A DNA stretch of 43,296 bases from the IMG/VR virus record IMGVR_UViG_3300045988_135711; one strand, given 5' to 3'. The position numbers and the translations under genes are program-made. This stretch comes from a virus. Of the stretch, positions 1-43,296 are shown in pieces. The notes beneath the pieces were generated by a model that worked only from the letters and a program-made list of their open reading frames with translations, made no database searches and had not been told where the DNA came from. How positions within the stretch are numbered: position 1 is the stretch's first letter; each line of letters opens with the position of its first letter.

Positions 1-55
1 ACACAAATGCCAAATTGGTTTTTAGAACGGTGCAGTATCGGTAAATCGGGCGGGG
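1..55. repeat. 55-bp terminal direct repeat, identical to 43242-43296; overlap of a circular assembly
   Basis: acacaaatgccaaattggtttttagaacggtgcagtatcggtaaatcgggcgggg occurs at both ends of the window. Confidence 0.95.
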
Positions 56-213
56 AGTGGTGCGTGTATGATAGTTTTTTCGATGACGAAGTTACTGTTC
101 ATATTGGTAGCTTCATTGTGGATAATGTCTTCGAAACGGTTGAAATTGTGGATGCAGAAACATTCAACAAAAACTACACCCCCGTAACCGCAACGGGTGA
201 GGAACATGCCTAA
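1..213 (+). CDS. hypothetical protein, C-terminal part of the junction-spanning ORF that starts at 43188 (88 aa in total)
   Basis: Position 1 is in frame with the ATG at 43188. The ORF-track entry 7..213 is the truncated copy. Stop TAA is at 211-213. Confidence 0.6.
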   Translation, partial: TQMPNWFLERCSIGKSGGEWCVYDSFFDDEVTVHIGSFIVDNVFETVEIVDAETFNKNYTPVTATGEEHA

Positions 214-550
214 ACGACCGTGTGCTCATCCAGGATGTAATGTTTTAGTCGATATTAAAGAACGCTATTGCAAAGAACACCAGCAAACAAAAACGGACTT
301 TAGACCGTCTGCATATCAACGTGGATATGATCATAAATGGCAGAAAGCACGGAAACGGTACTTATCCGAACATCCGTTTTGCGCAGAATGTTTAAAACAA
401 GGTAAGTATACCCTTGCAACTGATGTAGACCATATCATCGCACATAAGGGCAGTAAGATTTTATTTTGGTCTGAAAATAACTGGCAAGCGTTATGCCATT
501 CATGCCACAGCAAGAAAACAGCTAAAGAAGATAACGGAGGATGGTATTAA
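197..550 (+). CDS. HNH endonuclease, packaging-associated
   Basis: CxxC...DHIIAHKG...WQALCHSCHSKKT is an HNH/zinc motif, and the position upstream of terS fits cos phages. Start is GTG 197 or ATG 206. Confidence 0.9.
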   Translation: MRNMPKRPCAHPGCNVLVDIKERYCKEHQQTKTDFRPSAYQRGYDHKWQKARKRYLSEHPFCAECLKQGKYTLATDVDHIIAHKGSKILFWSENNWQALCHSCHSKKTAKEDNGGWY

Positions 551-577
551 TTCATTCCCTTATATTCAAATTGAAAC

Positions 578-658
578 TTTGATACCCAGTATTCGATTTT
601 TGGTTTTTGATACCCGATTTCGAAAACTGGTTTTTTGATTATTAAATTCGAAATTTCG
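578..658. repeat. direct repeats TTTGATACCC (578-587 and 606-615; degenerate copy 633-643) interleaved with TTCGA(A/T) motifs
   Basis: Read directly from the sequence, immediately downstream of the HNH stop. Repeat spacing is 28 bp. Confidence 0.6.
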
Positions 659-868
659 TTTTTACACAAAAAAAGAACGAATAAATAAAACTTAACTAAT
701 GCCATAAAAAAACAAAATACAAAACACAACAAGTGAAAACGGAATAGAAAAATTAATCAAAATAACAATATCTATAACAAACAAACATGCGGTGGACGAT
801 GAACCAAATCGTTCGAAATGACGTATTTCAGTATGATTGACCGCTTGCTTACTGATCATATAATTGTT

Positions 869-1005
869 TACGGTACTATGTGGACATAGAATAGGAACGA
901 TTTTCGAGAGTGATAGACACTGAATAAAAGTATAGTTGATTGAATAAATGGTCTGAATCCTTTCGAGAATGATTGCTATTGCAGGTTCGATTCCTGCTGT
1001 CGTAT
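869..1005 (+). ncRNA. tRNA-like four-way junction RNA element; not a canonical tRNA
   Basis: T arm gcagg-TTCGATT-cctgc (981-997). Acceptor pairing tacggta (869-875) with tgtcgta (998-1004). Hairpin ctatg-UGGA-catag (876-889). Long irregular arm 890-910 paired with 960-980. Confidence 0.4.
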
Positions 1006-1833
1006 TAAACCTAGATAAGCCTTTCATAGAACACATAGAGGTTAACCTTTCACCCTCATCTTTCTTTCCCCTTCCTTCACTAACTTATCTAGGTTTTCTA
1101 TTTTTAAATAAATAAAAAAGATTGCTCTAAACTTTCGTTTAAAACAATCTAAACCTCTTATTTAATTCAATTCTATAAAATCCTAAACAAAACACATAAA
1201 TATATACTTATACATCCACTCTTTTAAAAAAATAGTGGTGGTAGTCATATATGCCCGCCGAGTTATATAAAAAACGTTAATAAGGCGAGAAAAAAAGTAA
1301 AAAAAGTCATTTCGGACAAATTATCGGAAAAAGGGACAAAGTCCGGGTGTTTACATTTTTCATGAAAACTGTTTTCATAAAGGATTTTCAAAGAACAACG
1401 GTTTTAATATCGTAAATATTTAAATATTCGCCCTTAACCTAACATTAAATTTTTAGTTTGTCAATAGGTCGAAAAATCGGAAAAATTCAAGCGGTGAGGG
1501 CGGTTTATAGATTCGCTATTTATGTATTTGTATTTAGCGCTGTATGCTTGTGGATTTGAAACAGAATATAAAAACAAGCCCTTTCTTTTAAAAACGCTGT
1601 AAGGGGCTTTAATTCGCAAAATACAAAAGGGTGCGAAAATGTAAATATTTTAAAATTTAATAATTAGGTCGCTTGATTTGTTTTTGTGTTTTTGAATCCA
1701 CGCAAACAAAAACAGCGTACATACATACGCTTATAATAGCAGATATCAAAATACACTAAAATTAATAGAATCGCTTAAATCGCAAATATGGACGAATTAG
1801 GAAGGGTATGTTTTTAGCAGCAGGATCTAAAAA

Positions 1834-1868
1834 AGAAAATAAAAAAAGAGTGGTGTTTAAACCACTCT
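1834..1868 (-). terminator. intrinsic terminator of the minus-strand cassette, possibly bidirectional
   Basis: 8-bp stem agagtggt/accactct (1847-1854 and 1861-1868), followed on the - strand by a T-run (A-run 1834-1847 on the + strand). Confidence 0.8.
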
Positions 1869-1880
1869 AATTAATTTAGT

Positions 1881-2414
1881 TTAATATTCTAATAACTTAA
1901 TGTTTCCGATTGATGGAAATTCATCTCGATCACATTCAAACCACGTTTGAACAGCGTATTCAATTTCATTCCAAGGATAATCAAAGAAATTTAAAATTAT
2001 TCGTCTTTGGTCGATTGCATCGTATTCATTTAAAAGTTGCTTTGTCTCGTCCTTAAAATGTGAAATTTCTTCTTCAATATCGAAAACAATAAAAGGAATT
2101 CCTGTTCTTTCACAAATTTCTTTATAATCTTCTTCAGTAAGTTGCTCAGATAACCATTCTGACAAGTCGTTATTTTCTTCATGTTTTTTGATTTCTTCTT
2201 CAGAGAATTTTTTCATTAGAACATATTCTGTATAGTAATCTTCATCACCGTAATAGTATTCATTTTTAAAGCAGCGCGTTGCAATTGCGTTGTATAATTT
2301 TTCGTATGAATCAAATACATAGTAGTCACCAATGTAATTATAATCGTATTGCATATCATAAGTAATATAATCGTGATTCTTAACGTGTTTAAATGATAAA
2401 TAATATTTTTCCAT
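1881..2414 (-). CDS. hypothetical highly acidic D/E/Y-rich protein (177 aa)
   Basis: Long ORF with RBS aaaggatg upstream; last gene of the - strand cassette. Confidence 0.75.
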   Translation of the reverse strand: MEKYYLSFKHVKNHDYITYDMQYDYNYIGDYYVFDSYEKLYNAIATRCFKNEYYYGDEDYYTEYVLMKKFSEEEIKKHEENNDLSEWLSEQLTEEDYKEICERTGIPFIVFDIEEEISHFKDETKQLLNEYDAIDQRRIILNFFDYPWNEIEYAVQTWFECDRDEFPSIGNIKLLEY

Positions 2415-2434
2415 TTTTAAAACATCCTTTCTTT

Positions 2435-2749
2435 CTAAACCTCTTTAAACCCTTGATAATAAGCGCTTCCTTGATTAGCTAAGATTATACTTTTAATTTG
2501 GTCATCCGTCAATGACGTTACGAGCCCAAAGAAATCAAATTGATAAATATCTTCATAATCTTCCTTATTATTCAACTCTTCTAATTCAGTAGAGTAGTTT
2601 AGTAACTCGTTGAATGTGTCGCCTTCTAGATCTGTGAAATCGTGGACTAAACCACGTTTCATTAATTTACATAATAATTCTAAATAGTTGTCGGCTTCCT
2701 CGTTCCATTTAGTGAATCTGCTTGTGTCTGTTCCATTCCATTTAATCAT
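2435..2749 (-). CDS. hypothetical acidic protein (104 aa)
   Basis: ORF with RBS aggaaggacgag upstream; tightly packed in the cassette. Confidence 0.75.
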   Translation of the reverse strand: MIKWNGTDTSRFTKWNEEADNYLELLCKLMKRGLVHDFTDLEGDTFNELLNYSTELEELNNKEDYEDIYQFDFFGLVTSLTDDQIKSIILANQGSAYYQGFKEV

Positions 2750-2764
2750 TTTAACTCGTCCTTC

Positions 2765-2989
2765 CTATAATTCAATTTTAAAATCAAGATAATCATCAAC
2801 TAAATCGAGTATATTAGTATATAGATTTTTTACTAAATCTTCTATAGCTAAGGGTAATTTGTGTAGTTTGAAATCTTGAATAAAATTATATAAATCATCT
2901 TTGTAGTAATCATCAATAAAGCAGAATATATCAAGTTGTGCATCTTTCATGTTATTTGCCTTCTTTCTTAAATTATAAATTTTCTTCAA
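2765..2989 (-). CDS. hypothetical acidic protein (74 aa)
   Basis: ORF that overlaps the upstream gene by 17 nt, suggesting translational coupling. Confidence 0.65.
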   Translation of the reverse strand: MKKIYNLRKKANNMKDAQLDIFCFIDDYYKDDLYNFIQDFKLHKLPLAIEDLVKNLYTNILDLVDDYLDFKIEL

Positions 2990-3464
2990 TCCATCTATTC
3001 ATAATTTCTTCCATGTAGTCGTTATAAGGTATTTCGCTTGTTGTCTCAATATTTCCATAAGCATTAATTTTAAAATAATCATCAGTGAAATGAACCTTAC
3101 CAAAGAAACAAGCTCGCAATGCTTCGTAAGGCGTTGAGAAGAATTCATTAATCATATCTTCATCAAAATCATAATACTCATCGTAAAAAATATCGCTTAT
3201 ATCGTTTAAATCAAGATAGAAATCTTCTGACGTGTCTAAGTCTTCTAATCTATTTAAAAGTTTATCCAATCTATATAAAGGAATTTCATTATTACTATTT
3301 ACTAAATATGTCCCGCAATTCGAAACACATTCATAATCTTCAAAAGTTGCATCGTATTCAGTAAGATTATCAACGTTATCATAAAAATCTTGATACGCTT
3401 GTTGGTCGCTCCATCCTTCAAACACTTGTTTACCATCTTTAGTTACTTTTACATATAATTTCAT
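2973..3464 (-). CDS. hypothetical highly acidic D/E/Y-rich protein (163 aa)
   Basis: ORF with RBS gaaaggaag 5-10 nt upstream of the ATG. Confidence 0.75.
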   Translation of the reverse strand: MKLYVKVTKDGKQVFEGWSDQQAYQDFYDNVDNLTEYDATFEDYECVSNCGTYLVNSNNEIPLYRLDKLLNRLEDLDTSEDFYLDLNDISDIFYDEYYDFDEDMINEFFSTPYEALRACFFGKVHFTDDYFKINAYGNIETTSEIPYNDYMEEIMNRWIEENL

Positions 3465-3550
3465 TTTTATTCTTCCTTTCTATTCTTGAAAGGCTCATAC
3501 ATATCTGCTAAGATATAACAGAAGGGTGTATACCTTTCGTTTTAGCTTGT

Positions 3551-3591
3551 CAACCGCTTTACTTTCTCAGGGTGCTGCGGTTGGCTTTTTT
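3551..3591 (+). terminator. plus-strand intrinsic terminator-like hairpin, antisense to the cassette leader
   Basis: 7-bp stem caaccgc/gcggttg (3551-3557 and 3577-3583) followed by gcTTTTTT. Confidence 0.45.
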
Positions 3592-3681
3592 ATTACCTTC
3601 TTATCAAGTTCCGTTTTTCTATTTATGATTCTAGAATTTCGTTTTTCTCCTTTCTTGTCGTCCTTCCTTGACTACATTCAA

Positions 3682-3710
3682 AACTTAACACATTTACAAT
3701 TTAATGTCAA
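3682..3710 (-). promoter_or_regulatory. sigma-A-type promoter P2 (TTGACA-17-TAAGTT) for the acidic-protein genes
   Basis: - strand reads agtgTTGACAttaaattgtaaatgtgtTAAGTT. It shares the box AGTGTTGACATT with P1. Confidence 0.5.
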
Positions 3711-3714
3711 CACT

Positions 3715-3888
3715 TTAATATAAATTTTGGAAAACTTTTTTAAAAACATATTTGTTTATTGATAAATTTTCTTGTTCGGCTTTCTTCTTTATTAGATTAT
3801 ATTCGTCGTCCGTAAGTCTGAAAGATACTAATTTATCACGCTTTAAACCTGTTGGTGGCCTTCCAATTCTTTTATGTTTTTCTTCCAC
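3715..3888 (-). CDS. ribbon-helix-helix (CopG/MobC-like) DNA-binding protein, 57 aa
   Basis: KRIGRPPTG..KRDKLVSFRLTDDEYNLIKKKAEQENLSINKYV fits the RHH pattern. GTG start at 3888 with GAGGTG RBS 6 nt upstream. The longer track ORF (to 3948) would swallow its own promoter. Confidence 0.75.
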   Translation of the reverse strand: MEEKHKRIGRPPTGLKRDKLVSFRLTDDEYNLIKKKAEQENLSINKYVFKKVFQNLY

Positions 3889-3916
3889 TTGTTTCACCTC
3901 TTTTCTAACTGTCTTT

Positions 3917-3945
3917 ATTATACATACTACATAATTAAATGTCAA
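3917..3945 (-). promoter_or_regulatory. consensus sigma-A promoter P1 (TTGACA-17 nt-TATAAT)
   Basis: - strand reads TTGACAtttaattatgtagtatgTATAAT. Confidence 0.75.
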
Positions 3946-4284
3946 CACTAAACTATAAAATTTATTTCAAAAAATTAAATTATTCTTTTCCGTTTTAAAT
4001 AGTAGTTTTTTTATTTCTAGATCTAATTTACATAATCATTCATTTCATACATATTCACGCAGCTTAAATACAAGCTGTATTTTTTATGCTTATTTTTTCC
4101 TATTTAATAGAAGGAAAGAGTAAGCACAATTGAACATAATCATTTCAATTCATTCTATTAAATCATCTATATGAATCTTTCTGATGAATCCTTCATCAAT
4201 AACCTATCTAATTACCTCGTTAATTCATTCATTTATGTCTACATTTATCGTTATGAAAATAAATGAAAACAATATCTTGTGTTG

Positions 4285-4371
4285 AACAGGTGTTCGTCAC
4301 AACGTGTAGGGGATACCCCATGTGAAAATTTCACAAAGAAAAAATAAATTTAGACCGCGCCCCCCTCTAGC
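4285..4371. other. candidate cos/terminase recognition region
   Basis: Three palindromes: GAACAGGTGTTC (4285-4296), GGGGATACCCC (4309-4319), TGTGAAAATTTCACA (4321-4335). These are followed by a GC-rich island gaccgcgcccccctctagc (4353-4371), about 90 bp upstream of terS. Confidence 0.3.
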
Positions 4372-4456
4372 TCACACAAACTCCCCTTAATTTTTATTTC
4401 CGAACAGGCACTTTTTACATACATATATAAGAATAAATCCGAAAGGCGGTGAGAAC

Positions 4457-4951
4457 ATGGCAAACCTTGCTAGACCAATATCTTTAAGCGTTATTGAAGG
4501 TAAAAAACAGAAGCGAAGTAATGAAGAAATTAGGCGCAGAAAAGAGAACGAAAAAGCACTAAAAGTTGCAAAAGATAAGCTAAAACCACCTAGTTGGTTA
4601 GGTAAAATTGCAAAAAAAGAGTTTAAGTACATTGTGGATGAAACGCAGTCTATCGAATTACTAACTAATTTAGATGTTCATACATTAGCAGTGTATTCAA
4701 ACGTTTATGAACAGTATGTAATCTGTAACCAACGTTTGTTGGAAGATGGAATCATTGTAGAAGCAAACAAAGCATCGGAAACAGTGACAGCTGCACATCC
4801 ACTATTCGTAAAGCAAGCCCAATTATTCGACCAATTACGAAAGATGCAAACTGATCTCGGTTTGTCTCCATCGTCTAGGGCAAAACTAGCATTGCATGCA
4901 GCTTTAACATCGGACAAATCAAAGGAAGAAGAGGAGTTCGATAACGTATGA
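4457..4951 (+). CDS. terS: terminase small subunit (P27 family-like)
   Basis: N-terminus MANLARPISLSVIEGKKQKRSNEEIRRRKENE; size and position directly upstream of and overlapping terL. Confidence 0.85.
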   Translation: MANLARPISLSVIEGKKQKRSNEEIRRRKENEKALKVAKDKLKPPSWLGKIAKKEFKYIVDETQSIELLTNLDVHTLAVYSNVYEQYVICNQRLLEDGIIVEANKASETVTAAHPLFVKQAQLFDQLRKMQTDLGLSPSSRAKLALHAALTSDKSKEEEEFDNV

Positions 4952-6645
4952 GTGGCTTAAAGGAATTACTGGTGCAGTATAGTATCGATGCAATCAATTC
5001 CGAACAAGGTTATTGTCAGAAAGAAAAATGGGCTTGTATGCGTTTCTTACGAGATATTGAACGAGAGAATACGGATGAGTTTCCTTATGTGTTTGATGAA
5101 GAAAAAGCATTACGATTCTTACGATGGATGACAAATTTCAAACATAGTAAAGGTGTGTTAGCAGGTAAGAATATCGACCCTGCACCTATTCAAATGTTTA
5201 TATTCGGTAATATTTACGGATGGGTGCATAGAGACACTAACTATAGACGGTTTAGGATTTCGTATTGGCAGGTAGCACGTAAAAATGGAAAGACACAATC
5301 TAATGCGTGTGTAGCTAGTTATGAATCGAGTGCATTCGGAGAGCCTTACGCCGAAGTATATATCGGTGCAACGAAAACAGAGCAAGCTAAGATTCTGTGG
5401 AATGAAACTGATATTCAAATTCGAAGCAGTGCGTTTAAGGATAAATTTAAAAAAGCATATGGAAAAATCACTCACGAAAAATCGGGCGGATTTATTCAAG
5501 CGCTATCGCAGGAAGCAGGAAAAACGGGTGACGGTTTAAACCCACAGTGTGGACTGATAGACGAATATCACGCACATAAGACATCAGAAATTTATGAAGT
5601 CCTTAAATCTGGACAGGTAGCACGTCCACAACCATTGATTAGTATTATCACTACAGCAGGTTTTGACTTATCGAATCCTTGTTATAAGGAAGAATACAAC
5701 TATGTCAGTAAATTATTAGATCCAAACGATGATACCGAAAATGATTCGTATTTCGCTATGATTAACGAATTGGATGATGGCGATGATATTAAAGACGAAC
5801 GTAACTGGATTAAAGCGAATCCTATTGTAGCTACAACAGAAGAAGGTATGAAGTTCTTACGTGACGAATTAAGAATCGCATTAGACGTTCCAGAAAAAAT
5901 GCGTAACTTCTTAACTAAGAATATGAACAAGTGGGTAGATATGCCAGAAGCGGGATATATGGATATGCAGAAATGGAATGAAGCGGAATTAGAAGAAGAT
6001 GATTTTGCAGAATTCGCAAAAGAAGGAAAAGTATATCTAGGATTCGACTTATCTATGACTACCGACTTAACATCTATCGGGCTTGTAGCACGTAAAGGAA
6101 ACGATTATCGAGTGAAACAATTATCATTCATGCCTAGCGATAAATACCAAGAACGTATTTCGAAGGATAAGGTACGTTTCGACATCTTTAGAGACCGAGG
6201 CGAATTAATACTCACGGAAGGCTCTACCGTTGATTATACGCTTGTTAAAGCCTATATATTGAAGTTCTGCAAAGAATATGACGTACAAGAAGTATGTTAC
6301 GACAAATGGAACGCCCTTCAATTAGTACATGAGTTAGAGCAAGAAGGGTTATTAATGGTTGAAATCGAACAATCAGTACGAATGTTGACGGATGCAACGA
6401 AGAAATTCCGAGAGTGCGTATACAATCTTACATTAAAACATTACCAGGACAAATTATTGAAATGGTCTGTAGGTAACGCACGATTATTTGTAGATGCTTC
6501 CGAGAATATCAAGATTACTAAGAAGAAAAGTATTGACCGTATCGACCCTGTTGCTGCATTGATTAACGCATTTAAACGTGCATCAGATGGAGAAGAAATT
6601 GTGAATTACAACGAAGTAATATTAAGCGAGGATTGGGGGTTTTAG
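4948..6645 (+). CDS. terL: terminase large subunit
   Basis: 565 aa. Walker-like ARKNGKT, DEYH, and a C-terminal nuclease region. ATGA overlap with terS. Confidence 0.9.
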   Translation: MSGLKELLVQYSIDAINSEQGYCQKEKWACMRFLRDIERENTDEFPYVFDEEKALRFLRWMTNFKHSKGVLAGKNIDPAPIQMFIFGNIYGWVHRDTNYRRFRISYWQVARKNGKTQSNACVASYESSAFGEPYAEVYIGATKTEQAKILWNETDIQIRSSAFKDKFKKAYGKITHEKSGGFIQALSQEAGKTGDGLNPQCGLIDEYHAHKTSEIYEVLKSGQVARPQPLISIITTAGFDLSNPCYKEEYNYVSKLLDPNDDTENDSYFAMINELDDGDDIKDERNWIKANPIVATTEEGMKFLRDELRIALDVPEKMRNFLTKNMNKWVDMPEAGYMDMQKWNEAELEEDDFAEFAKEGKVYLGFDLSMTTDLTSIGLVARKGNDYRVKQLSFMPSDKYQERISKDKVRFDIFRDRGELILTEGSTVDYTLVKAYILKFCKEYDVQEVCYDKWNALQLVHELEQEGLLMVEIEQSVRMLTDATKKFRECVYNLTLKHYQDKLLKWSVGNARLFVDASENIKITKKKSIDRIDPVAALINAFKRASDGEEIVNYNEVILSEDWGF

Positions 6646-6646
6646 A

Positions 6647-6799
6647 TTGAAATATTACGATATTATTTTCCTACTAGGAATACTCATTATTTTAAGCACA
6701 ACGTTTTATATAGACGTAATTTACGGACTGTATTTAACGGGTGCTTTTTTTGTTGGAATGGGATTGCTAGTAGCAAGTAAACATAAAGAAAGGGGGTGA
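6647..6799 (+). CDS. small membrane protein (50 aa, TTG start), below the ORF-track cutoff
   Basis: GGGGG RBS 8 nt upstream of TTG. Two hydrophobic segments. It fills the terL-portal gap exactly. Confidence 0.4.
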   Translation: MKYYDIIFLLGILIILSTTFYIDVIYGLYLTGAFFVGMGLLVASKHKERG

Positions 6800-6806
6800 T
6801 ATATGA

Positions 6807-8093
6807 ATGCTAGAAAATATAATCCCTAAAAAGGTAGTAGATGGTGTCGCTAGTGGTGAAGTTGGTTGGGAAACTGCATTTAAGTATCTAATCAACAATG
6901 AAGTAACTAGCGGAAAGATTGCTCCTACAGCAAACAACGCCACACGATTTTCTACTGTATATGCGTGTATCAACGTTTTAGGAGACGATATCGCAAAACT
7001 ACCGTGGAAATCATATAAACAATCGAAAAACAAAATTGAGAAGGATTCATCTAGCGATGTATCACACGTATTAAACGTGCGACCAAACCGCTTTATGAAT
7101 CCTTTTGTGTATAAAAAATTAATCGTTACGGATGTGTGTACATACGGTAATCACTATTCTTACATTTCTTTCAATAAAAAGGGAGAAATCGAAGAATTGA
7201 TTCCTTTAGATCCATCAACTGTTCAAGTCGTAATTGATAGAAAAACTCGTGAATACGGGTATCAAGCAACGTTTAAAGAACAGAATGTGGTGTTTTTACC
7301 GCATGAAATCTTCCACATTAAAGCTTTATCGAAGGATGGGATTGTTGGTATTTCGCCACTTCAATCGATTCGAGAACAAATGTCCACGATGGATATTGCG
7401 ACTGCATTCAATAAAGGAATGGTTGAGAAAGGCGGTTCACCACAAGGGATTTTAGAAGTAGACGGTTCATTTGGTAAAGATGTAAAAACGAAAATTCGTG
7501 AAGAATGGCAACGTGTTAATTCGAATGAAAACATCGCAGTTGTGGATTTAGGAATGAAATACAAACAAATCGGTATTTCTCAACAAGACATGCAATTCCT
7601 AGAAATGATGAAGTTCTCTCAACAACAAATTGCAGCGATTTTTAAAGTGCCATTACACAAAATTAACGATTTAACACACGCAACTTATACAAACATCGAA
7701 CATCAATCCCTAGATTACGTGAAAAACACTTTACAACCGTGGGTAACTCAACTGGAAGAAGAAGCGAATTACAAACTATATACGAAATCGCAAAGAAATT
7801 CTGGACTATATTGCAAATTCAATATGGATAGCGAGTTACGTGGCGATAGCGAAAGTCGTGCAAAAGTGCAACAAATCAATCTTTCTTACGGTATGAAATC
7901 ACTGAATGAAGTAAGGGCGCAAAACGAAGATAGTCCTTATGAATCTGATTTAGCAGACAAACCACTAATGACATTGAACCTTGTTCCGCTGGATATAGCT
8001 GTCGAAGCAGCAACCAATCGATATGGAGCAAGTCAACGAGTACCGAAAGGGGGTGAAGACGATGGAAAAAGAAATGCGAATATTGACGAATGA
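6807..8093 (+). CDS. portal protein (HK97 family-like)
   Basis: 428 aa; position after terL; typical portal core sequence. Confidence 0.88.
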   Translation: MLENIIPKKVVDGVASGEVGWETAFKYLINNEVTSGKIAPTANNATRFSTVYACINVLGDDIAKLPWKSYKQSKNKIEKDSSSDVSHVLNVRPNRFMNPFVYKKLIVTDVCTYGNHYSYISFNKKGEIEELIPLDPSTVQVVIDRKTREYGYQATFKEQNVVFLPHEIFHIKALSKDGIVGISPLQSIREQMSTMDIATAFNKGMVEKGGSPQGILEVDGSFGKDVKTKIREEWQRVNSNENIAVVDLGMKYKQIGISQQDMQFLEMMKFSQQQIAAIFKVPLHKINDLTHATYTNIEHQSLDYVKNTLQPWVTQLEEEANYKLYTKSQRNSGLYCKFNMDSELRGDSESRAKVQQINLSYGMKSLNEVRAQNEDSPYESDLADKPLMTLNLVPLDIAVEAATNRYGASQRVPKGGEDDGKRNANIDE

Positions 8094-22485: not shown

Positions 22486-23367
22486 ATGTTTACATTAAGA
22501 CAAGCAATTAGTTATGTAAGAAATTTGTCAGATAACAACATCGGTGTTAACTTTGATGGCTGGTACGGTTGGCAATGTTGGGATTTAGTAGCAAAAGTAA
22601 TATATGAAGCTACTGGAAAAGTAGTTAATGGAAATGCTATTGATTTACTGGATTCTGCTAAAGCACTAGGGATTGAGGTCGTTTATGAAGCTCCCGGAGT
22701 AATTGCAAAAGCTGGAGATATATTCGTAATGTCTGTTCCGGGTTCTCCTTACGGTCATACGGGTGTAGTTATCGAGGATTCGGATGGGGTTACACTTAAA
22801 ACGATTGAACAAAACGTTGACGGAAACTGGGACTACTTAGAAGTAGGAGGACCCGCTCGTTATCGTACACGTTCGTATACTGGTATGGTTGGATATATTC
22901 GTCCAAACTATGCTACTGATTCAGAAAACGTCAAACGTCCTAGTGGTTGGATTGAAGATGAAAAGGGTTGGTGGTATAGAAACGATGACGGCTCTTATCC
23001 TAAGAATAAATGGGAAAAGATTAACGGAAGTTACTTCAGATTTAATAACAATGGATACGCTCTTGAGAATACTTGGTATAAAGATGAACAAGGGCTATGG
23101 TATTGGTTAAAGTCGGGAGGATACATGGCTGTCGGTTGGCAACAAATAAACGGAAAATGGTATTACTTTAACAATCTTGGAGAAATGCAAACAGGTTGGA
23201 TTCAATACTTCGACAAGTGGTACTATTGCACGGAATCAAACGGTGATATGGTGTCCAAGGAAGTTCGAAAAATTGGGGATAAGTTCTACTACTTCAATGA
23301 GAACGGCGAGATGTTGGAACGTGCTGCGGTCTATGTAGACGAAAACGGAGCGATTCATTTCAAATAA
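22486..23367 (+). CDS. endolysin: N-terminal CHAP amidase/peptidase plus C-terminal choline-binding-type repeats
   Basis: GWYGWQCWDLV (Cys) and GHTGVV (His). GW..WYYF-type repeats run from about 22940 to the end. Confidence 0.9.
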   Translation: MFTLRQAISYVRNLSDNNIGVNFDGWYGWQCWDLVAKVIYEATGKVVNGNAIDLLDSAKALGIEVVYEAPGVIAKAGDIFVMSVPGSPYGHTGVVIEDSDGVTLKTIEQNVDGNWDYLEVGGPARYRTRSYTGMVGYIRPNYATDSENVKRPSGWIEDEKGWWYRNDDGSYPKNKWEKINGSYFRFNNNGYALENTWYKDEQGLWYWLKSGGYMAVGWQQINGKWYYFNNLGEMQTGWIQYFDKWYYCTESNGDMVSKEVRKIGDKFYYFNENGEMLERAAVYVDENGAIHFK

Positions 23368-23449: not shown

Positions 23450-23719
23450 ATGGATAATGTTTATTTATTATTAGAAATTATTGAAGACATTGAAGAATAC
23501 GGTGCAGATTATCCAGTCTATGCGATATATAAAAATGATTTAATATATGACTACTGGTATGTGGAAGAACCCGAAGTAGGGTTGGATATGGAAGGTACTA
23601 AAATTATTATGGAACACTACGAGGAATTAGATTGTATAGATAAAGATTCTGTACGTGAAATGTCATTATTAGAGTTATTGAATCGTTTGAGAGTGCAGGT
23701 GGAAGAAAAAAATAATTGA
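23450..23719 (+). CDS. hypothetical acidic protein (89 aa), moron-like
   Basis: Own extended -10 promoter TGcTATAAT (about 23421-23429), RBS aagggg, and flanking terminators. Confidence 0.7.
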   Translation: MDNVYLLLEIIEDIEEYGADYPVYAIYKNDLIYDYWYVEEPEVGLDMEGTKIIMEHYEELDCIDKDSVREMSLLELLNRLRVQVEEKNN

Positions 23720-34610: not shown

Positions 34611-34943
34611 ATGGAACTATTATCAGCAACATATTGCCCGTATTGCGAAAGCAGGCTAGACATAGAAAGCATGCTCACATTGGAAAAATTAAAAGAAATG
34701 GAATTCTATCTTACCTGTCCAAAGTGTAATAAAGCGTTCTCGAATTTTGCGAAAACAGAAATAAGAATACGCGTAAGCAGTATTGAAGATAGAATTGAGA
34801 AAGAAAAAGATTCTTTATTATTTTGGGAGAAATCTAAGATAAAAGGCGATGAATTTAAAAGTGCTGTAATTAAATCACGAAAACAAACTATTCAAGAATT
34901 AGAATTGATTAAGAGAAGAAACGATAAGGTGGTTAGGAAATGA
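34611..34943 (+). CDS. zinc-ribbon protein
   Basis: CPYC...CPKC; RBS aaggaggg. Confidence 0.7.
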   Translation: MELLSATYCPYCESRLDIESMLTLEKLKEMEFYLTCPKCNKAFSNFAKTEIRIRVSSIEDRIEKEKDSLLFWEKSKIKGDEFKSAVIKSRKQTIQELELIKRRNDKVVRK

Positions 34944-35302
34944 AAACAATCAATGAAATAACAGATGATGAATTGTTGTTTAATGAACAAACCGATTCCC
35001 AAATATATGCATGCGATTTAAAACATGAATGGAATTCGTTAAATGAGGATGAGAGAAGCGGATGGCGAACACTTAAAGAAAGAACAATCAAATTATATGC
35101 TAAATCTGTATTAGATTGGATATATGATGGGATGGATTCAGAAGGCTACGAAGATATGTTTGACAATTTATGGGACGACACGGACGAAGAATTTAAACAA
35201 CGAATGCAAGAGCTACTTGATGAAATTTCTGGCTTTCCAAGTGCTAAAGTTTATGACATTGATGAGTCTATCAATCCATTCGTGGATTTGGAGGATGAGT
35301 GA
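34940..35302 (+). CDS. hypothetical acidic protein, paralog of 35543..35911
   Basis: Shared EEFKQRMQELLDEI...INPFVDLEDE tail. Confidence 0.7.
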   Translation: MKTINEITDDELLFNEQTDSQIYACDLKHEWNSLNEDERSGWRTLKERTIKLYAKSVLDWIYDGMDSEGYEDMFDNLWDDTDEEFKQRMQELLDEISGFPSAKVYDIDESINPFVDLEDE

Positions 35303-38563: not shown

Positions 38564-39583
38564 ATGCAGTTTTTAGATCTATTCGCAGGTATCGGTGGCT
38601 TCCGTCTAGGGATGGAAGCTGCAGGACACCAGTGCATTGGATTTTGTGAAATTGATAAATTCGCAAGAGCAAGTTATAAAGCAATTCACGACACAAAAAG
38701 GGAAATAGAATTACATGACATTACAACCGTATCAGACGAGTTTATTCAATCCATCGGACATGTCGATGTTATCTGTGGAGGATTTCCGTGCCAAGCTTTC
38801 TCGATTGCAGGGAATAGAAGAGGATTCGAAGATACGAGAGGAACTCTATTCTTTGAAATCGCAAGGTTCGCATCTATTCTCAAACCTAGAATTTTGTTTC
38901 TTGAAAATGTCAAAGGGTTACTCAACCACGACAAAGGAAGAACATTTGAAACCATCTTGCAAGCGCTGGATGAACTGGGGTACAACGTGGAATGGCAAGT
39001 GCTTAACAGCAAAGATTTCGGAGTGCCACAAAACAGAGAACGAGTGTTCATTATCGGACATCTTAGAGGAGAAGGTGGACGAAAAGTATTTCCTATCGAT
39101 GGACAAATTAAAAACGTTAATTGTGTACGACAAATAGGCAATCTGATACAAACATCGAGTTACGGTGGTAATCCACATAGAGGTAGAGTTTATTCGTCGA
39201 AAGGAATCTCACCTAGTCTGAATTGTATGGGTGGTGGAGGTAGAGAACCTAAAATCCGTATCAAAGAAGCAACCAAAAAAGGTTATGCAGAAGCAACAAT
39301 CGGAGATAGTGTAAATCTTTCACATCCTAACTCAAAAACGAGAAGGGGTAGAGTAGGTAAAGGGATTGCGAATACGCTACTCACTGGAGAAGAACAAGGT
39401 GTGGTTTTGAATGATTTCAGAATCCGTAAACTAACCCCGAAAGAATGTTGGAGATTACAAGGATTTCCAGATTGGGCTTTTGAAAGAGCAGCAAAGGTAA
39501 ATAGTAATAGTCAACTATACAAACAAGCAGGTAATAGTGTGACGGTAAACGTGATTGAAGCTATCGCAAGGAGGTTAGTATGA
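38564..39583 (+). CDS. dcm: DNA (cytosine-5)-methyltransferase, orphan
   Basis: FAGIGG (motif I), GFPCQAFS (IV), ENVKGL (VI), QNRERVFIIG (VIII), GNSVTVNV (X). Confidence 0.95.
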   Translation: MQFLDLFAGIGGFRLGMEAAGHQCIGFCEIDKFARASYKAIHDTKREIELHDITTVSDEFIQSIGHVDVICGGFPCQAFSIAGNRRGFEDTRGTLFFEIARFASILKPRILFLENVKGLLNHDKGRTFETILQALDELGYNVEWQVLNSKDFGVPQNRERVFIIGHLRGEGGRKVFPIDGQIKNVNCVRQIGNLIQTSSYGGNPHRGRVYSSKGISPSLNCMGGGGREPKIRIKEATKKGYAEATIGDSVNLSHPNSKTRRGRVGKGIANTLLTGEEQGVVLNDFRIRKLTPKECWRLQGFPDWAFERAAKVNSNSQLYKQAGNSVTVNVIEAIARRLV

Positions 39584-43187: not shown

Positions 43188-43296
43188 ATGGAATATAAAA
43201 CAACGATTGTACGTAGGGCGGTACAGTTCACTGGTGATTTAACACAAATGCCAAATTGGTTTTTAGAACGGTGCAGTATCGGTAAATCGGGCGGGG
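43188..43296 (+). CDS. hypothetical protein, N-terminal part of the junction-spanning ORF (continues at position 56 of the window)
   Basis: ATG at 43188 with RBS aaaggag 6 nt upstream, in frame with 7..213. Confidence 0.6.
   Translation, partial: MEYKTTIVRRAVQFTGDLTQMPNWFLERCSIGKSGG
43242..43296. repeat. 55-bp terminal direct repeat, a copy of 1-55
   Basis: Exact identity with the start of the window. Confidence 0.95.

What the first reader, a model, noticed from the sequence alone, without database searches (positions are those of the whole stretch)
1834..3948. Self-contained minus-strand cassette between HNH and terS: RHH regulator plus four very acidic D/E/Y-rich proteins; anti-defence or DNA-mimic candidates
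In cos phages that carry an HNH gene, the HNH normally sits next to cos and terS. Here a 2.1-kb counter-oriented module separates them. It has its own consensus promoter (TTGACA-17-TATAAT, 3917-3945). It encodes a 57-aa CopG/MobC-like RHH protein and four tightly packed ORFs of 163, 74, 104 and 177 aa. Those four are extremely rich in Asp, Glu, Tyr and Phe and have no family I can recognise. A strong terminator (1834-1868) closes the unit. A housekeeping-type promoter implies expression independent of the late programme, possibly from the prophage or immediately on entry. Small, highly acidic proteins in such accessory cassettes are typical of DNA mimics and anti-restriction or anti-defence factors (Ocr, ArdA, some Acr proteins). 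They are also typical of immunity-protein arrays. The proteins did not read as ArdA to me.
Basis: partly seen in the sequence, partly recalled or inferred. Interest (0 to 1): 0.65.

Follow-up and report, generated by a model that had tools for sequence, protein, structure and literature searches.

The report
Self-regulated hypervariable phage accessory-gene cassette
Between a temperate phage's HNH and terminase genes lies a counter-oriented cassette of swappable, mostly very acidic proteins of unknown families; a small repressor and a predicted antisense RNA control it, which suits a brief burst on cell entry and counter-defence genes, though no function is shown.

Summary
A minus-strand unit at 1834-3948 lies between HNH (197-550) and terS (4457-4951). 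It has the window's only perfect TTGACA-17-TATAAT, a 57-aa NikA/CopG-type RHH, four tightly packed acidic ORFs and a strong terminator. Three corrections apply. The "74-aa" ORF is 61 aa. A second promoter (P2, 3682-3710) duplicates P1. The 212-nt cargo leader is almost invariant and encodes a predicted ~70-nt antisense sRNA on the + strand (3521-3591). Modelled pairing of that sRNA flips a Shine-Dalgarno-sequestering switch in 10 of 10 variants.

About 25 related metagenomic phage contigs carry the same locus with more than 15 different gene sets. Two cultured Streptococcus prophages (Javan214, Javan64) have the same design with unrelated cargo.

The cargo families are mutually unrelated and have no Pfam or PDB match. 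p163 is not ArdA (hhalign 0.8%). Its C-terminal domain family is nevertheless fused to the ArdA N-domain on Lactobacillales plasmids. It also lies in early terminal-repeat regions of Bacillus and Staphylococcus myoviruses.

Best reading: a pulse-expressed accessory cassette, most likely for counter-defence or host takeover. Function is untested.

The parts
3917..3945 (-). P1, perfect TTGACA-17-TATAAT promoter of the RHH gene
   Evidence: one match in the window, 0.04 expected by chance. Its -35 and upstream part lie in the 31-nt direct repeat 3933-3963.
3715..3888 (-). 57-aa ribbon-helix-helix protein (GTG start), the presumed autorepressor of P1 and P2
   Evidence: Pfam NikA-like 6.6e-10 (above cut-off) and RHH_7 3.2e-5. 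PHROG repressor and Arc-like families. NCBIfam MbpA/MobA/RelB RHH. Orthologues start with ATG at the same codon. Two RHH types co-vary with two promoter/operator types.
3682..3710 (-). P2, cargo promoter TTGACA-17-TAAGTT, a near-duplicate of P1
   Evidence: 31-nt direct repeat 3698-3728 / 3933-3963, 84% identical. Relatives of the other RHH type carry ATGATATCAT over the -10 of both promoters. Javan214 has two perfect consensus promoters with ATCCTAGGAT.
3465..3676 (-). Cargo 5' leader (about 212 nt) with anti-SD CCUUUC (3488-3493) and SD GAAAGG (3475-3480)
   Evidence: Nearly invariant in 10 distinct relatives whose coding sequences are 63-93% identical. It precedes different first genes. With the antisense target masked, P(SD paired) is 0.99-1.00 in 10/10 variants. 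In the free leader it is 0.08-0.48 in 7/10.
3486..3514 (+). Pas, antisense promoter TTGAAA-17-TGcTAAGAT (extended -10)
   Evidence: The -10 variants in relatives (TAAGAT, TAAACT, TAAAAT, TAATAT, TAGAAT) all keep TA...T and the upstream TG.
3521..3591 (+). Predicted ~70-nt cis-antisense sRNA: hairpin 3521-3538, then terminator stem 3549-3585 plus T6
   Evidence: Fold -26.5 kcal/mol, z -4.6. The antisense strand folds at -23 to -27 against -14 to -18 for the sense strand in 10 variants. The G-U pairs and one-sided changes pair only on the + strand.
2973..3464 (-). p163: lead cargo protein, pI 4.05, net charge -27; its C-terminal domain (about residues 65-163) belongs to a wider uncharacterised family
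   Evidence: Orthologues are 61 aa starting MKDAQL. Found only in this phage clade.
2435..2749 (-). p104: acidic all-alpha protein, pI 4.2
   Evidence: 22 clusters at 64-94% identity. 31% identity to hypothetical proteins in the lysin-to-end region of Streptococcus prophages. AF2 pLDDT 82, eight helices. No fold match in PDB or BFVD.
1881..2414 (-). p177: acidic, Tyr-rich protein, pI 4.3, net charge -24
   Evidence: Orthologues at 74-97% identity to the window protein in at least 8 related cassettes. No phage tblastn, Pfam, PHROG or PDB hit. Unrelated to p163, p104 and ArdA by hhalign.
1834..1868 (-). Intrinsic terminator closing the cassette
   Evidence: Invariant stem in all relatives.

Best explanation
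This is a hypervariable accessory-gene cassette of a clade of temperate siphoviruses. The hosts are probably choline-containing oral streptococci. The cassette sits between HNH and the cos/terS region.

Its head is a fixed control module:
- Two near-duplicate strong sigma-A promoters, P1 and P2, each carrying the presumed operator.
- A NikA/CopG-type RHH repressor expressed from P1.
- A long conserved cargo leader.
- A constitutive ~70-nt antisense sRNA made from inside that leader.

Proposed sequence of events (inferred):
1. In a newly entered genome there is neither repressor nor antisense RNA, so host RNA polymerase fires P1 and P2 at once and the cargo is translated.
2. As RHH accumulates it shuts both promoters.
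3. As the antisense RNA accumulates it pairs with the leader. That frees the anti-SD CCUUUC to sequester the GAAAGG Shine-Dalgarno sequence of the first cargo gene.
4. The result is a short pulse followed by low-level expression, including in the lysogen.

The cargo slot holds interchangeable small cytoplasmic proteins, here four acidic ones from four unrelated families. Their most likely job is early counter-defence or host takeover by binding host proteins, and DNA mimicry is possible for p163 and p177.

Shown by computation: the genes, promoters, terminators, repeats, RNA folds, conservation and cargo turnover. Inferred: repression by RHH, existence and action of the sRNA, timing of expression, and protein function.
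For: Architecture and significance.

RHH and operator co-variation:
- Two RHH types (57 aa and 55 aa, 61% identical) each go with their own sequence repeated at P1 and P2.
- The same twin-promoter design with a palindrome occurs in Javan214 and Javan64.

Antisense RNA:
- Promoter with extended -10, hairpin and terminator on the + strand.
- Strand-specific stability and G-U pairs.
- The substitution pattern keeps the critical -10 positions.
- An analogous two-hairpin-plus-U7 antisense element occurs in Javan214 and Javan64, with z -6.0 and -4.9.

Leader switch: works in 10 of 10 variants.

Cargo turnover: more than 15 architectures across about 25 contigs. These include single-gene indels between 96%-identical phages, gene fusions, and different first genes behind the same leader.

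Foreign composition.

Company kept by the p163 C-terminal domain:
- Fused to the ArdA N-domain, including L. reuteri plasmid proteins annotated ArdA.
- Found in the Grass terminal repeat and the SBSphiJ7 early region.
- Found beside a TreK-like gene. Phage K terminal-repeat genes are the first transcribed, at 2 min (PMC9241854).

Precedents for RHH-controlled pulse expression:
- Aca14 for anti-defence genes (PMC13551039).
- The Reg repressor of p576/pLS20 clade II plasmids for establishment genes (PMC8708921).
Against: - No cargo protein matches any known anti-defence, DNA-mimic or other characterised family.
- p163 fails the ArdA profile test.
- The p163 model is unreliable (pLDDT 52). The good p104 model has no structural neighbour.
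- Acidity is not unique to the cassette. Relatives carry basic proteins, and Javan214 carries a signal-peptide-like protein in the same slot, so the cargo is functionally mixed.
- RNA evidence rests on highly conserved sequences. No stem of the sRNA has a two-sided compensatory change.
- No expression data exist. The cos site is not mapped, so the idea that the cassette lies on the first-injected end is conjecture.
- An own promoter plus terminator in a temperate phage fits a lysogen-expressed moron equally well.
Confidence: 0.5

Rival explanations
1. Lysogenic-conversion or superinfection-exclusion morons. On this view the cassette is expressed at a repressor-set level from the prophage. Its proteins would benefit the lysogen, for example by blocking other phages or altering host physiology, rather than the infecting phage.
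For: - Own sigma-70-type promoter and terminator, orientation opposite to the late genes, and low GC are classic moron features.
- p104 relatives lie in the lysin-to-prophage-end region of Streptococcus prophages, a typical moron site.
- Javan214's cassette includes a signal-peptide- or lipoprotein-like 93-aa protein, a common form of exclusion protein.
- Autorepression gives a stable low steady state.
Against: - Small, very acidic, domain-less cytoplasmic proteins are not typical defence effectors. There are no PADLOC hits.
- The p163 domain family associates with lytic-phage terminal repeats and with ArdA-N on plasmids, which are offensive contexts.
- A consensus promoter combined with a repressor and an antisense RNA suits a pulse more than steady supply.
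Confidence: 0.25
2. A phage-internal function. On this view the proteins assist packaging or cos recognition, or modulate the early-to-late switch, and their position beside HNH and terS reflects that role.
For: The location between HNH and terS is conserved in every relative. The RHH is of the NikA/MobC relaxosome-accessory type.
Against: - Core functions do not tolerate this turnover. p163, p104 and p177 are each missing in some near relatives, and the first gene can be replaced.
- The TerL relative PT9.1 lacks the cassette.
- The unit is counter-oriented with its own regulation.
Confidence: 0.08
3. An array of orphan immunity proteins against polymorphic (LXG/Esx-type) toxins, carried by the prophage to protect its host.
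For: The proteins are small, acidic, aromatic-rich and variable, and are arranged in tandem. The likely host group is rich in such toxins (general knowledge).
Against: No Imm, SUKH or SMI1 Pfam hit and no toxin gene nearby. The p163 domain family occurs in lytic myoviruses, where immunity to bacterial toxins has no obvious use.
Confidence: 0.05
4. A plasmid-derived copy-control or toxin-antitoxin module, in which the RHH acts as CopG or as an antitoxin and the downstream genes are a Rep protein or a toxin.
For: RHH followed by a countertranscript in the intergenic leader is the pMV158 CopG/RNAII layout (general knowledge). There is a weak RelB-antitoxin NCBIfam hit at 0.0014.
Against: - No Rep, toxin or nuclease domain is present.
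- The downstream gene is 250 nt away with its own promoter, is replaceable, and is strongly acidic.
- The phage has an integrase and a conventional lysogeny module.
Confidence: 0.03

Closest known systems
acr-aca anti-defence operons, especially those regulated by the RHH protein Aca14 (PMC13551039)
   Same: - A strong promoter drives small variable proteins.
- A tiny co-encoded DNA-binding autorepressor is present.
- The repeat or palindrome overlaps the promoter and recurs at a neighbouring promoter.
- The locus carries many unannotated small genes.
   Different: - The regulator is first in the unit, not last.
- No known Acr or anti-defence gene is present.
- Homology of this RHH to Aca14 was not tested.
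- An extra antisense-RNA and leader layer is predicted here. My two literature searches did not find one reported for acr operons. The published RNA layer is Aca binding to the 5' UTR.
Establishment regulons of Bacillus conjugative plasmids p576 / pLS20 clade II, repressed by the RHH protein Reg (PMC8708921)
   Same: An RHH repressor with operators at strong promoters gives rapid but transient expression of highly variable anti-restriction or establishment genes on entry into a new cell. The RHH here is of the plasmid NikA/MobC/MbpA type.
   Different: That system belongs to a plasmid entering as ssDNA, whereas this is a phage. The plasmid cargo includes recognisable ArdC-type genes, which are absent here.
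Dual copy control of rolling-circle and theta plasmids: pMV158 CopG + RNAII, pIP501 CopR + RNAIII (general knowledge)
   Same: An RHH or small repressor is encoded first. A short countertranscript with an intrinsic terminator is made from the leader of the next gene. The target gene is controlled after transcription, by RBS occlusion or by attenuation. Javan214 and Javan64 have an attenuator-like hairpin plus U-run.
   Different: The regulated genes are not replication initiators. The predicted sRNA does not overlap the RBS and would act through an anti-SD rearrangement.
ArdA (Tn916 Orf18, PDB 2w82) and Ocr DNA mimics
   Same: Size (about 160 aa) and charge (net -24 to -27) are similar. Both are encoded on mobile DNA, and early expression is expected. 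The p163 C-terminal domain replaces the ArdA C-terminal part in hybrid proteins that keep the ArdA N-domain.
   Different: There is no profile similarity (Pfam; hhalign 0.8%) and no usable structural comparison.
Terminal-repeat early (host-takeover, 'Tre') genes of Herelleviridae such as phage K and Bacillus phage Grass
   Same: Both are arrays of small, unannotated, promoter-rich genes. p163-C family members are among them. Phage K terminal-repeat genes are transcribed first (PMC9241854).
   Different: Those are lytic myoviruses with long terminal repeats. This is a temperate cos-type siphovirus with a single repressor-controlled unit.

Membership tests
ArdA antirestriction protein (PF07275) | Significant sequence or profile match to ArdA | tested here: not met
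   No Pfam ArdA hit at E<=1 for any cargo protein. hhalign of the p163 family against canonical ArdA gives probability 0.8%. For p177 against ArdA it is 0.2%.
ArdA antirestriction protein (PF07275) | Elongated three-domain fold whose dimer mimics about 42 bp of B-DNA | tested here: inconclusive
   The p163 AF2 model has pLDDT 52. Foldseek against PDB gives no match with E<2.
ArdA antirestriction protein (PF07275) | Inhibition of type I restriction-modification enzymes | not testable with these tools
   Needs a plating or in vitro assay.
acr-aca type anti-defence operon | Small co-encoded DNA-binding regulator, with its repeat or palindrome at the operon promoter and at a neighbouring promoter | tested here: met
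   RHH. 31-nt repeat at P1 and P2. Operator and RHH types co-vary. Palindromes lie in the twin promoters of Javan214/64. Binding itself was not tested.
acr-aca type anti-defence operon | At least one gene with demonstrated or homology-inferred anti-defence activity | tested here: not met
   No Pfam, PHROG, NCBIfam, PADLOC or PDB match to a known anti-defence protein. dbAPIS and AntiDefenseFinder models were not available.
acr-aca type anti-defence operon | Regulator homologous to a named Aca family (for example Aca14) | not tested
   The Aca14 sequence (WP_005725436.1) was not at hand.
NikA-like / CopG RHH proteins (PF21983, PF16777) | Profile match above the curated cut-off | tested here: met
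   NikA-like 39.4 bits against a cut-off of 27. RHH_7 scores 24.7 bits, just below its cut-off of 27.
CopG + countertranscript plasmid copy control | Repressor gene followed by a leader that encodes a short antisense RNA ending in an intrinsic terminator | tested here: met
   Predicted from sequence only.
CopG + countertranscript plasmid copy control | The regulated gene is a replication initiator | tested here: not met
   No Rep domain in p163 or any alternative first gene.
Type II toxin-antitoxin with RHH antitoxin | Adjacent or overlapping toxin gene of a known toxin fold | tested here: not met
   The next gene is 250 nt away, has its own promoter, is acidic and has no toxin domain.
Polymorphic-toxin immunity proteins | Match to Imm/SUKH/SMI1 families, or linkage to a toxin gene | tested here: not met
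   No such Pfam hits and no toxin in the window or in related loci.

The most novel reading that the evidence does not exclude
The locus may be a previously undescribed kind of counter-defence "launch pad" shared by Streptococcus-type temperate phages. Its fixed module would consist of twin consensus promoters, an RHH repressor, a cis-antisense sRNA and an SD-sequestering leader. That module would time a pulse of expression for freely exchangeable cargo. The cargo (p163, p61, p104, p177 and about 15 others) would include several new families of defence inhibitors or DNA mimics. The p163 C-terminal domain would be a new anti-restriction module interchangeable with the ArdA C-terminal part. The neighbouring conserved tRNA-like RNA (869-1004) might belong to the same island, for example as a decoy for tRNA-targeting defences.
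Probability: 0.3. Interest if true: 0.8.

Novelty: new variant of a known kind. Interest (0 to 1): 0.62.

Why it matters
If the reading is right, three things follow.
1. The conserved head (RHH, twin promoters, leader and antisense RNA) is a sequence signature. It could be used to harvest unknown early or counter-defence genes from streptococcal phages and metagenomes by position alone. More than 15 cargo families are already in hand, none of them annotated.
2. It would add an antisense-RNA layer to the repressor-only (or repressor plus RNA-binding) control known for anti-defence operons.
3. It points to a domain (p163-C) that replaces part of ArdA on plasmids and recurs in the first-expressed regions of large Bacillus and Staphylococcus phages. 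That makes it a concrete, testable candidate for a new anti-restriction or host-takeover module in Gram-positive bacteria.

If the cargo instead serves the lysogen, the same signature marks a hotspot of prophage-encoded fitness factors in oral streptococci.

Tried and rejected
- Nucleotide searches of 1-6700 and of the cassette against 50,697 phage records found no match.
- Rfam searches of 400-4600 and 820-1130 found nothing near a gathering score.
- PADLOC found no hits.
- PDB sequence searches with p163, p177 and the p163-family profile gave only noise.
- A search for p163 in 185,579 species genomes, first with the single sequence and then with a profile, found nothing.
- ArdA homology of p163 looked plausible by eye (N-terminal MKLYVK..EGW; YFKINAYGN against YIDYQAYGRD). 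hhalign rejected it.
- Paralogy among the four cargo proteins was rejected.
- The p163 AF2 model was too poor to use. Foldseek returned nothing for p163 or for the good p104 model.
- The + strand ORF 3526-3723 (65 aa, hydrophobic) was considered as a type I toxin. It was rejected because its frame is not conserved in L007.
- The ORF 692-1036 (-) was rejected as coding. It overlaps the conserved tRNA-like element and its sequence is not protein-like.
- Cargo proteins of relatives and of Javan214/64 have no Pfam or PHROG families.
- A literature search for DUF7659 found nothing.


Full report
**What is there.**
- The window is a circularly assembled (55-bp terminal overlap) ~43.2-kb genome of a temperate siphovirus. 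It has an integrase, an HTH repressor with an M78 peptidase, a DUF1492 late regulator, a C5-methyltransferase and a CHAP endolysin with choline-binding repeats.
- No isolated phage matches it at the nucleotide level. TerL is at most 59% identical to Geobacillus and Bacillus phage TerL.
- The endolysin's best matches are S. mitis and S. infantis phages at 44-48% identity. From this I infer a choline-containing oral streptococcus or a close relative as host.
- HNH (197-550) and terS (4457-4951) are separated by 3.9 kb of low-GC DNA, 29.5% against 35.1%.
ORFs, promoter, terminator and acidity are all confirmed.
- The listed 74-aa ORF is really 61 aa.

**The control module is richer than a single promoter.**
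- P1 (3917-3945) drives the 57-aa RHH.
- A second promoter, P2 (3682-3710), lies just after the RHH stop codon. It sits inside a 31-nt direct repeat shared with P1.
- Relatives fall into two RHH types, 57 aa and 55 aa, 61% identical. Each type has its own sequence repeated at both promoters: AGTGTTGACATTnAA in one, and the palindrome ATGATATCAT over the -10 in the other. This co-variation is what an autorepressor-operator pair predicts. Binding itself is inferred.
- Between P2 and p163 lies a 212-nt leader whose distal 125 nt are almost invariant in ten distinct relatives. Their coding sequences, by contrast, are only 63-93% identical.

**The antisense unit.** On the opposite (+) strand the leader contains three elements:
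- An extended -10 promoter, TTGAAA-17-TGcTAAGAT (3486-3514).
- A hairpin at 3521-3538.
- A textbook intrinsic terminator, with its stem at 3549-3585 followed by T6.

Three observations assign the structure to the + strand transcript:
- It folds at -23 to -27 kcal/mol, against -14 to -18 for the sense strand, in all ten variants.
- Its stems contain G-U pairs that would be C-A mismatches on the sense strand, and the one-sided substitutions keep pairing only on the + strand.
- The five -10 variants all keep TA...T plus the upstream TG.

No stem shows a two-sided compensatory change, because the sequences are too similar. The sRNA therefore remains a prediction.

**A leader switch.**
- The leader carries two GAAAGG and two CC(C/U)UUC elements.
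- In the free leader the upstream GAAAGG pairs with the downstream CCUUUC, and the Shine-Dalgarno GAAAGG is mostly open. P(paired) is 0.08-0.48 in 7 of 10 variants.
- When the antisense target is made unavailable, as pairing with the sRNA would do, CCUUUC pairs with the Shine-Dalgarno sequence in 10 of 10 variants (P 0.99-1.00).
- The same leader precedes different first genes: three p163 subtypes, an unrelated 168-aa protein, or p104 directly. It is therefore a portable regulatory head, not part of any one gene.

**The cargo is in flux.**
- Contigs found through p163, p104 and the leader motif all keep the locus between terS and HNH. Together they show more than 15 gene sets.
- A phage 96% identical to the window lacks only p104.
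- One contig fuses the N-terminal half of p163 to the C-terminus of p61. Another fuses p104 to a different C-terminal piece.
- p177 recurs in at least eight cassettes.
- Some slot-mates are basic, with pI 9.3-9.8.
- None of about 25 cargo proteins has a Pfam or PHROG family, apart from p163 matching phrog_4534 (unknown function).
- The families are mutually unrelated.
- The TerL relative PT9.1 has HNH, one small ORF and terS with no cassette.

**The same design occurs in cultured genomes.**
- RHH homologues at 37-46% identity occur in Streptococcus prophages Javan214 (S. equinus) and Javan64 (S. anginosus).
- There too the RHH is divergent from terS. It is flanked by two perfect TTGACA-17-TATAAT promoters that share a palindrome (ATCCTAGGAT).
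- It is followed by a ~190-nt leader whose antisense strand forms two hairpins plus U7 (-29.8 kcal/mol, z -6.0; and -29.4, z -4.9).
- A sense-strand hairpin plus U-run and a Shine-Dalgarno-sequestering helix come next, and then unrelated small genes. These include an 85-aa protein (pI 4.05), a 180-aa protein (pI 4.2) and a signal-peptide-like 93-aa protein.
- The sequences are unrelated to the window's leader, so it is the design that is conserved.

**What the proteins might be.**
- p163 has only five close clusters among 5.8 billion proteins.
- A profile search finds 230 representative clusters sharing its C-terminal domain, with the motif W.FDE.FF...P.EAARA..FG.V.W.D.Y.RFNGYGNLET.
- A few members carry an ArdA N-domain in front of this domain. 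P0060 matches Pfam ArdA at 1.4e-15 and PDB 2w82 at 6.9e-10. L. reuteri plasmid proteins of this hybrid type are annotated ArdA. Other members carry DUF7659.
- Further members lie in the 4.2-kb terminal repeat of Bacillus phage Grass, in the early region of SBSphiJ7, and beside a TreK-like gene in Kayvirus-like contigs. In phage K the terminal-repeat genes are the first transcribed (PMC9241854).
- Even so, p163 is not an ArdA homologue (hhalign 0.8%), and its structure model is unusable.
- p104 gives a confident all-alpha model (pLDDT 82) with no neighbour in PDB or BFVD. Its only distant relatives are hypothetical proteins in the lysin-to-end region of Streptococcus prophages.
- p177 and p61 are confined to this clade.

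**Interpretation.**
- Strong promoters, an autorepressor and an antisense RNA together form a circuit that fires when the DNA enters a cell lacking both regulators, and then shuts down.
- The same logic is documented for acr-aca operons, including the RHH regulator Aca14, whose inverted repeat overlaps the -10 and recurs at neighbouring operons (PMC13551039).
- It is also documented for the establishment genes of Bacillus plasmids repressed by an RHH protein (PMC8708921).
- The repressor-plus-countertranscript layout mirrors pMV158 and pIP501 copy control (general knowledge).
- Taking this together with the cargo turnover, the foreign composition, the acidity and the associations of the p163 domain, I rate early counter-defence or host takeover as the most likely function (about 0.5).
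- A lysogen-serving moron cassette is the main rival (about 0.25). The cargo may well be mixed.

**What remains open.**
- Whether the cassette lies on the first-injected DNA end depends on where cos is.
- A conserved G+C-rich motif at 4353-4386, just upstream of terS, is a candidate. HNH and terminase genes normally flank cos in HK97-like phages (PMC9410871, PMC12967558). The ends are not mapped.

**Verdict.** I class the locus as a new variant of a known kind: a repressor-controlled accessory or anti-defence-type operon with an added antisense-RNA switch and entirely novel cargo.

Noticed in passing
window 869-1004 (+), promoter-like 837-864: A conserved tRNA-like non-coding RNA candidate. 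It has a 7-bp acceptor stem (TACGGTA/TGTCGTA), a D-like hairpin, a ~26-bp arm in place of the anticodon arm, a canonical T-arm (GCAGGTTCGATTCCTGC) and no encoded CCA. It is present in 10 related loci. 97.7% of cells pair, there are 2 compensatory pairs, and wobble pairs in the acceptor stem become Watson-Crick pairs in the second type. ARAGORN and Rfam do not call it; Rfam matches only the T-arm (E=5).
   Followed up: partly
window 551-1880: A ~1.3-kb stretch without credible ORFs between HNH and the cassette. It is conserved block-wise in all relatives (69-86% identity). It contains further minus-strand terminator-like hairpins (1119-1150, 1714-1731 and about 1565-1600) and a palindrome (ATGAAAACAGTTTTCAT, about 1366-1382). 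These may be additional small RNA units.
   Followed up: partly
window 558-680: Direct repeats of GATACCC..(T)TTCGA..TTTTGGTTTTT immediately downstream of HNH, conserved in all relatives. They could be terminase-binding or iteron-like sites. A GGGGTATCC motif also occurs upstream of terS (about 4300-4320).
   Followed up: no
window 4353-4386: A G+C-rich motif (GACCGCGCCCCCCTCTAGCTCACACAAACTCCCC) about 70-100 bp upstream of terS. It is conserved in all relatives within otherwise AT-rich DNA and is a candidate cos cleavage region.
   Followed up: partly
window 4059-4085 (+): A conserved + strand intrinsic terminator (GCAGCTTAAATACAAGCTGT + T-run) between the RHH promoter and terS. It would stop transcription running antisense through the RHH gene, which implies that the late terS transcript starts downstream of it.
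   Followed up: no
window 1-55 and 43242-43296: The ends of the window overlap by exactly 55 bp, so the window is a circularly closed assembly of a complete phage genome.
   Followed up: yes
L008 227-499; L007 2169-2621: Natural gene fusions in relatives. In L008 the N-terminal 85 aa of p163 are joined to the C-terminus of p61 at the EDFYLD/DDYLDF microhomology. In L007 p104 is fused to the C-terminal part of a 189-aa cargo protein.
   Followed up: partly
L046 (Javan214) 4180-7290; L047 (Javan64) 4180-5460: Cultured Streptococcus prophages carry an analogous, unannotated unit upstream of terS: RHH, twin consensus promoters, a leader with an antisense element, and a variable cassette. In them a 38-41-aa ORF precedes the RHH.
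   Followed up: partly
window 22486-23367 (+): The endolysin has a CHAP domain plus choline-binding repeats. Its best matches are S. mitis and S. infantis phages at 44-48% identity, which points to a choline-containing streptococcal host.
   Followed up: partly
window 38564-39583 (+): A C5 cytosine DNA methyltransferase (Pfam 2.2e-88) in the early region. It is a separate, conventional anti-restriction device of the same phage.
   Followed up: no
window 23450-23719 (+), 34940-35302 (+), 7-213 (+): Other small proteins as acidic as the cassette proteins (pI 4.05-4.11) lie elsewhere in the genome. The first lies between the lysin and the integrase, a classic moron site.
   Followed up: no
L024 (L. 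reuteri plasmid pLr03) 1571-6498: The hybrid protein (ArdA N-domain plus p163-C domain) sits in a run of ten small same-strand hypothetical genes, resembling a plasmid leading or establishment region.
   Followed up: no
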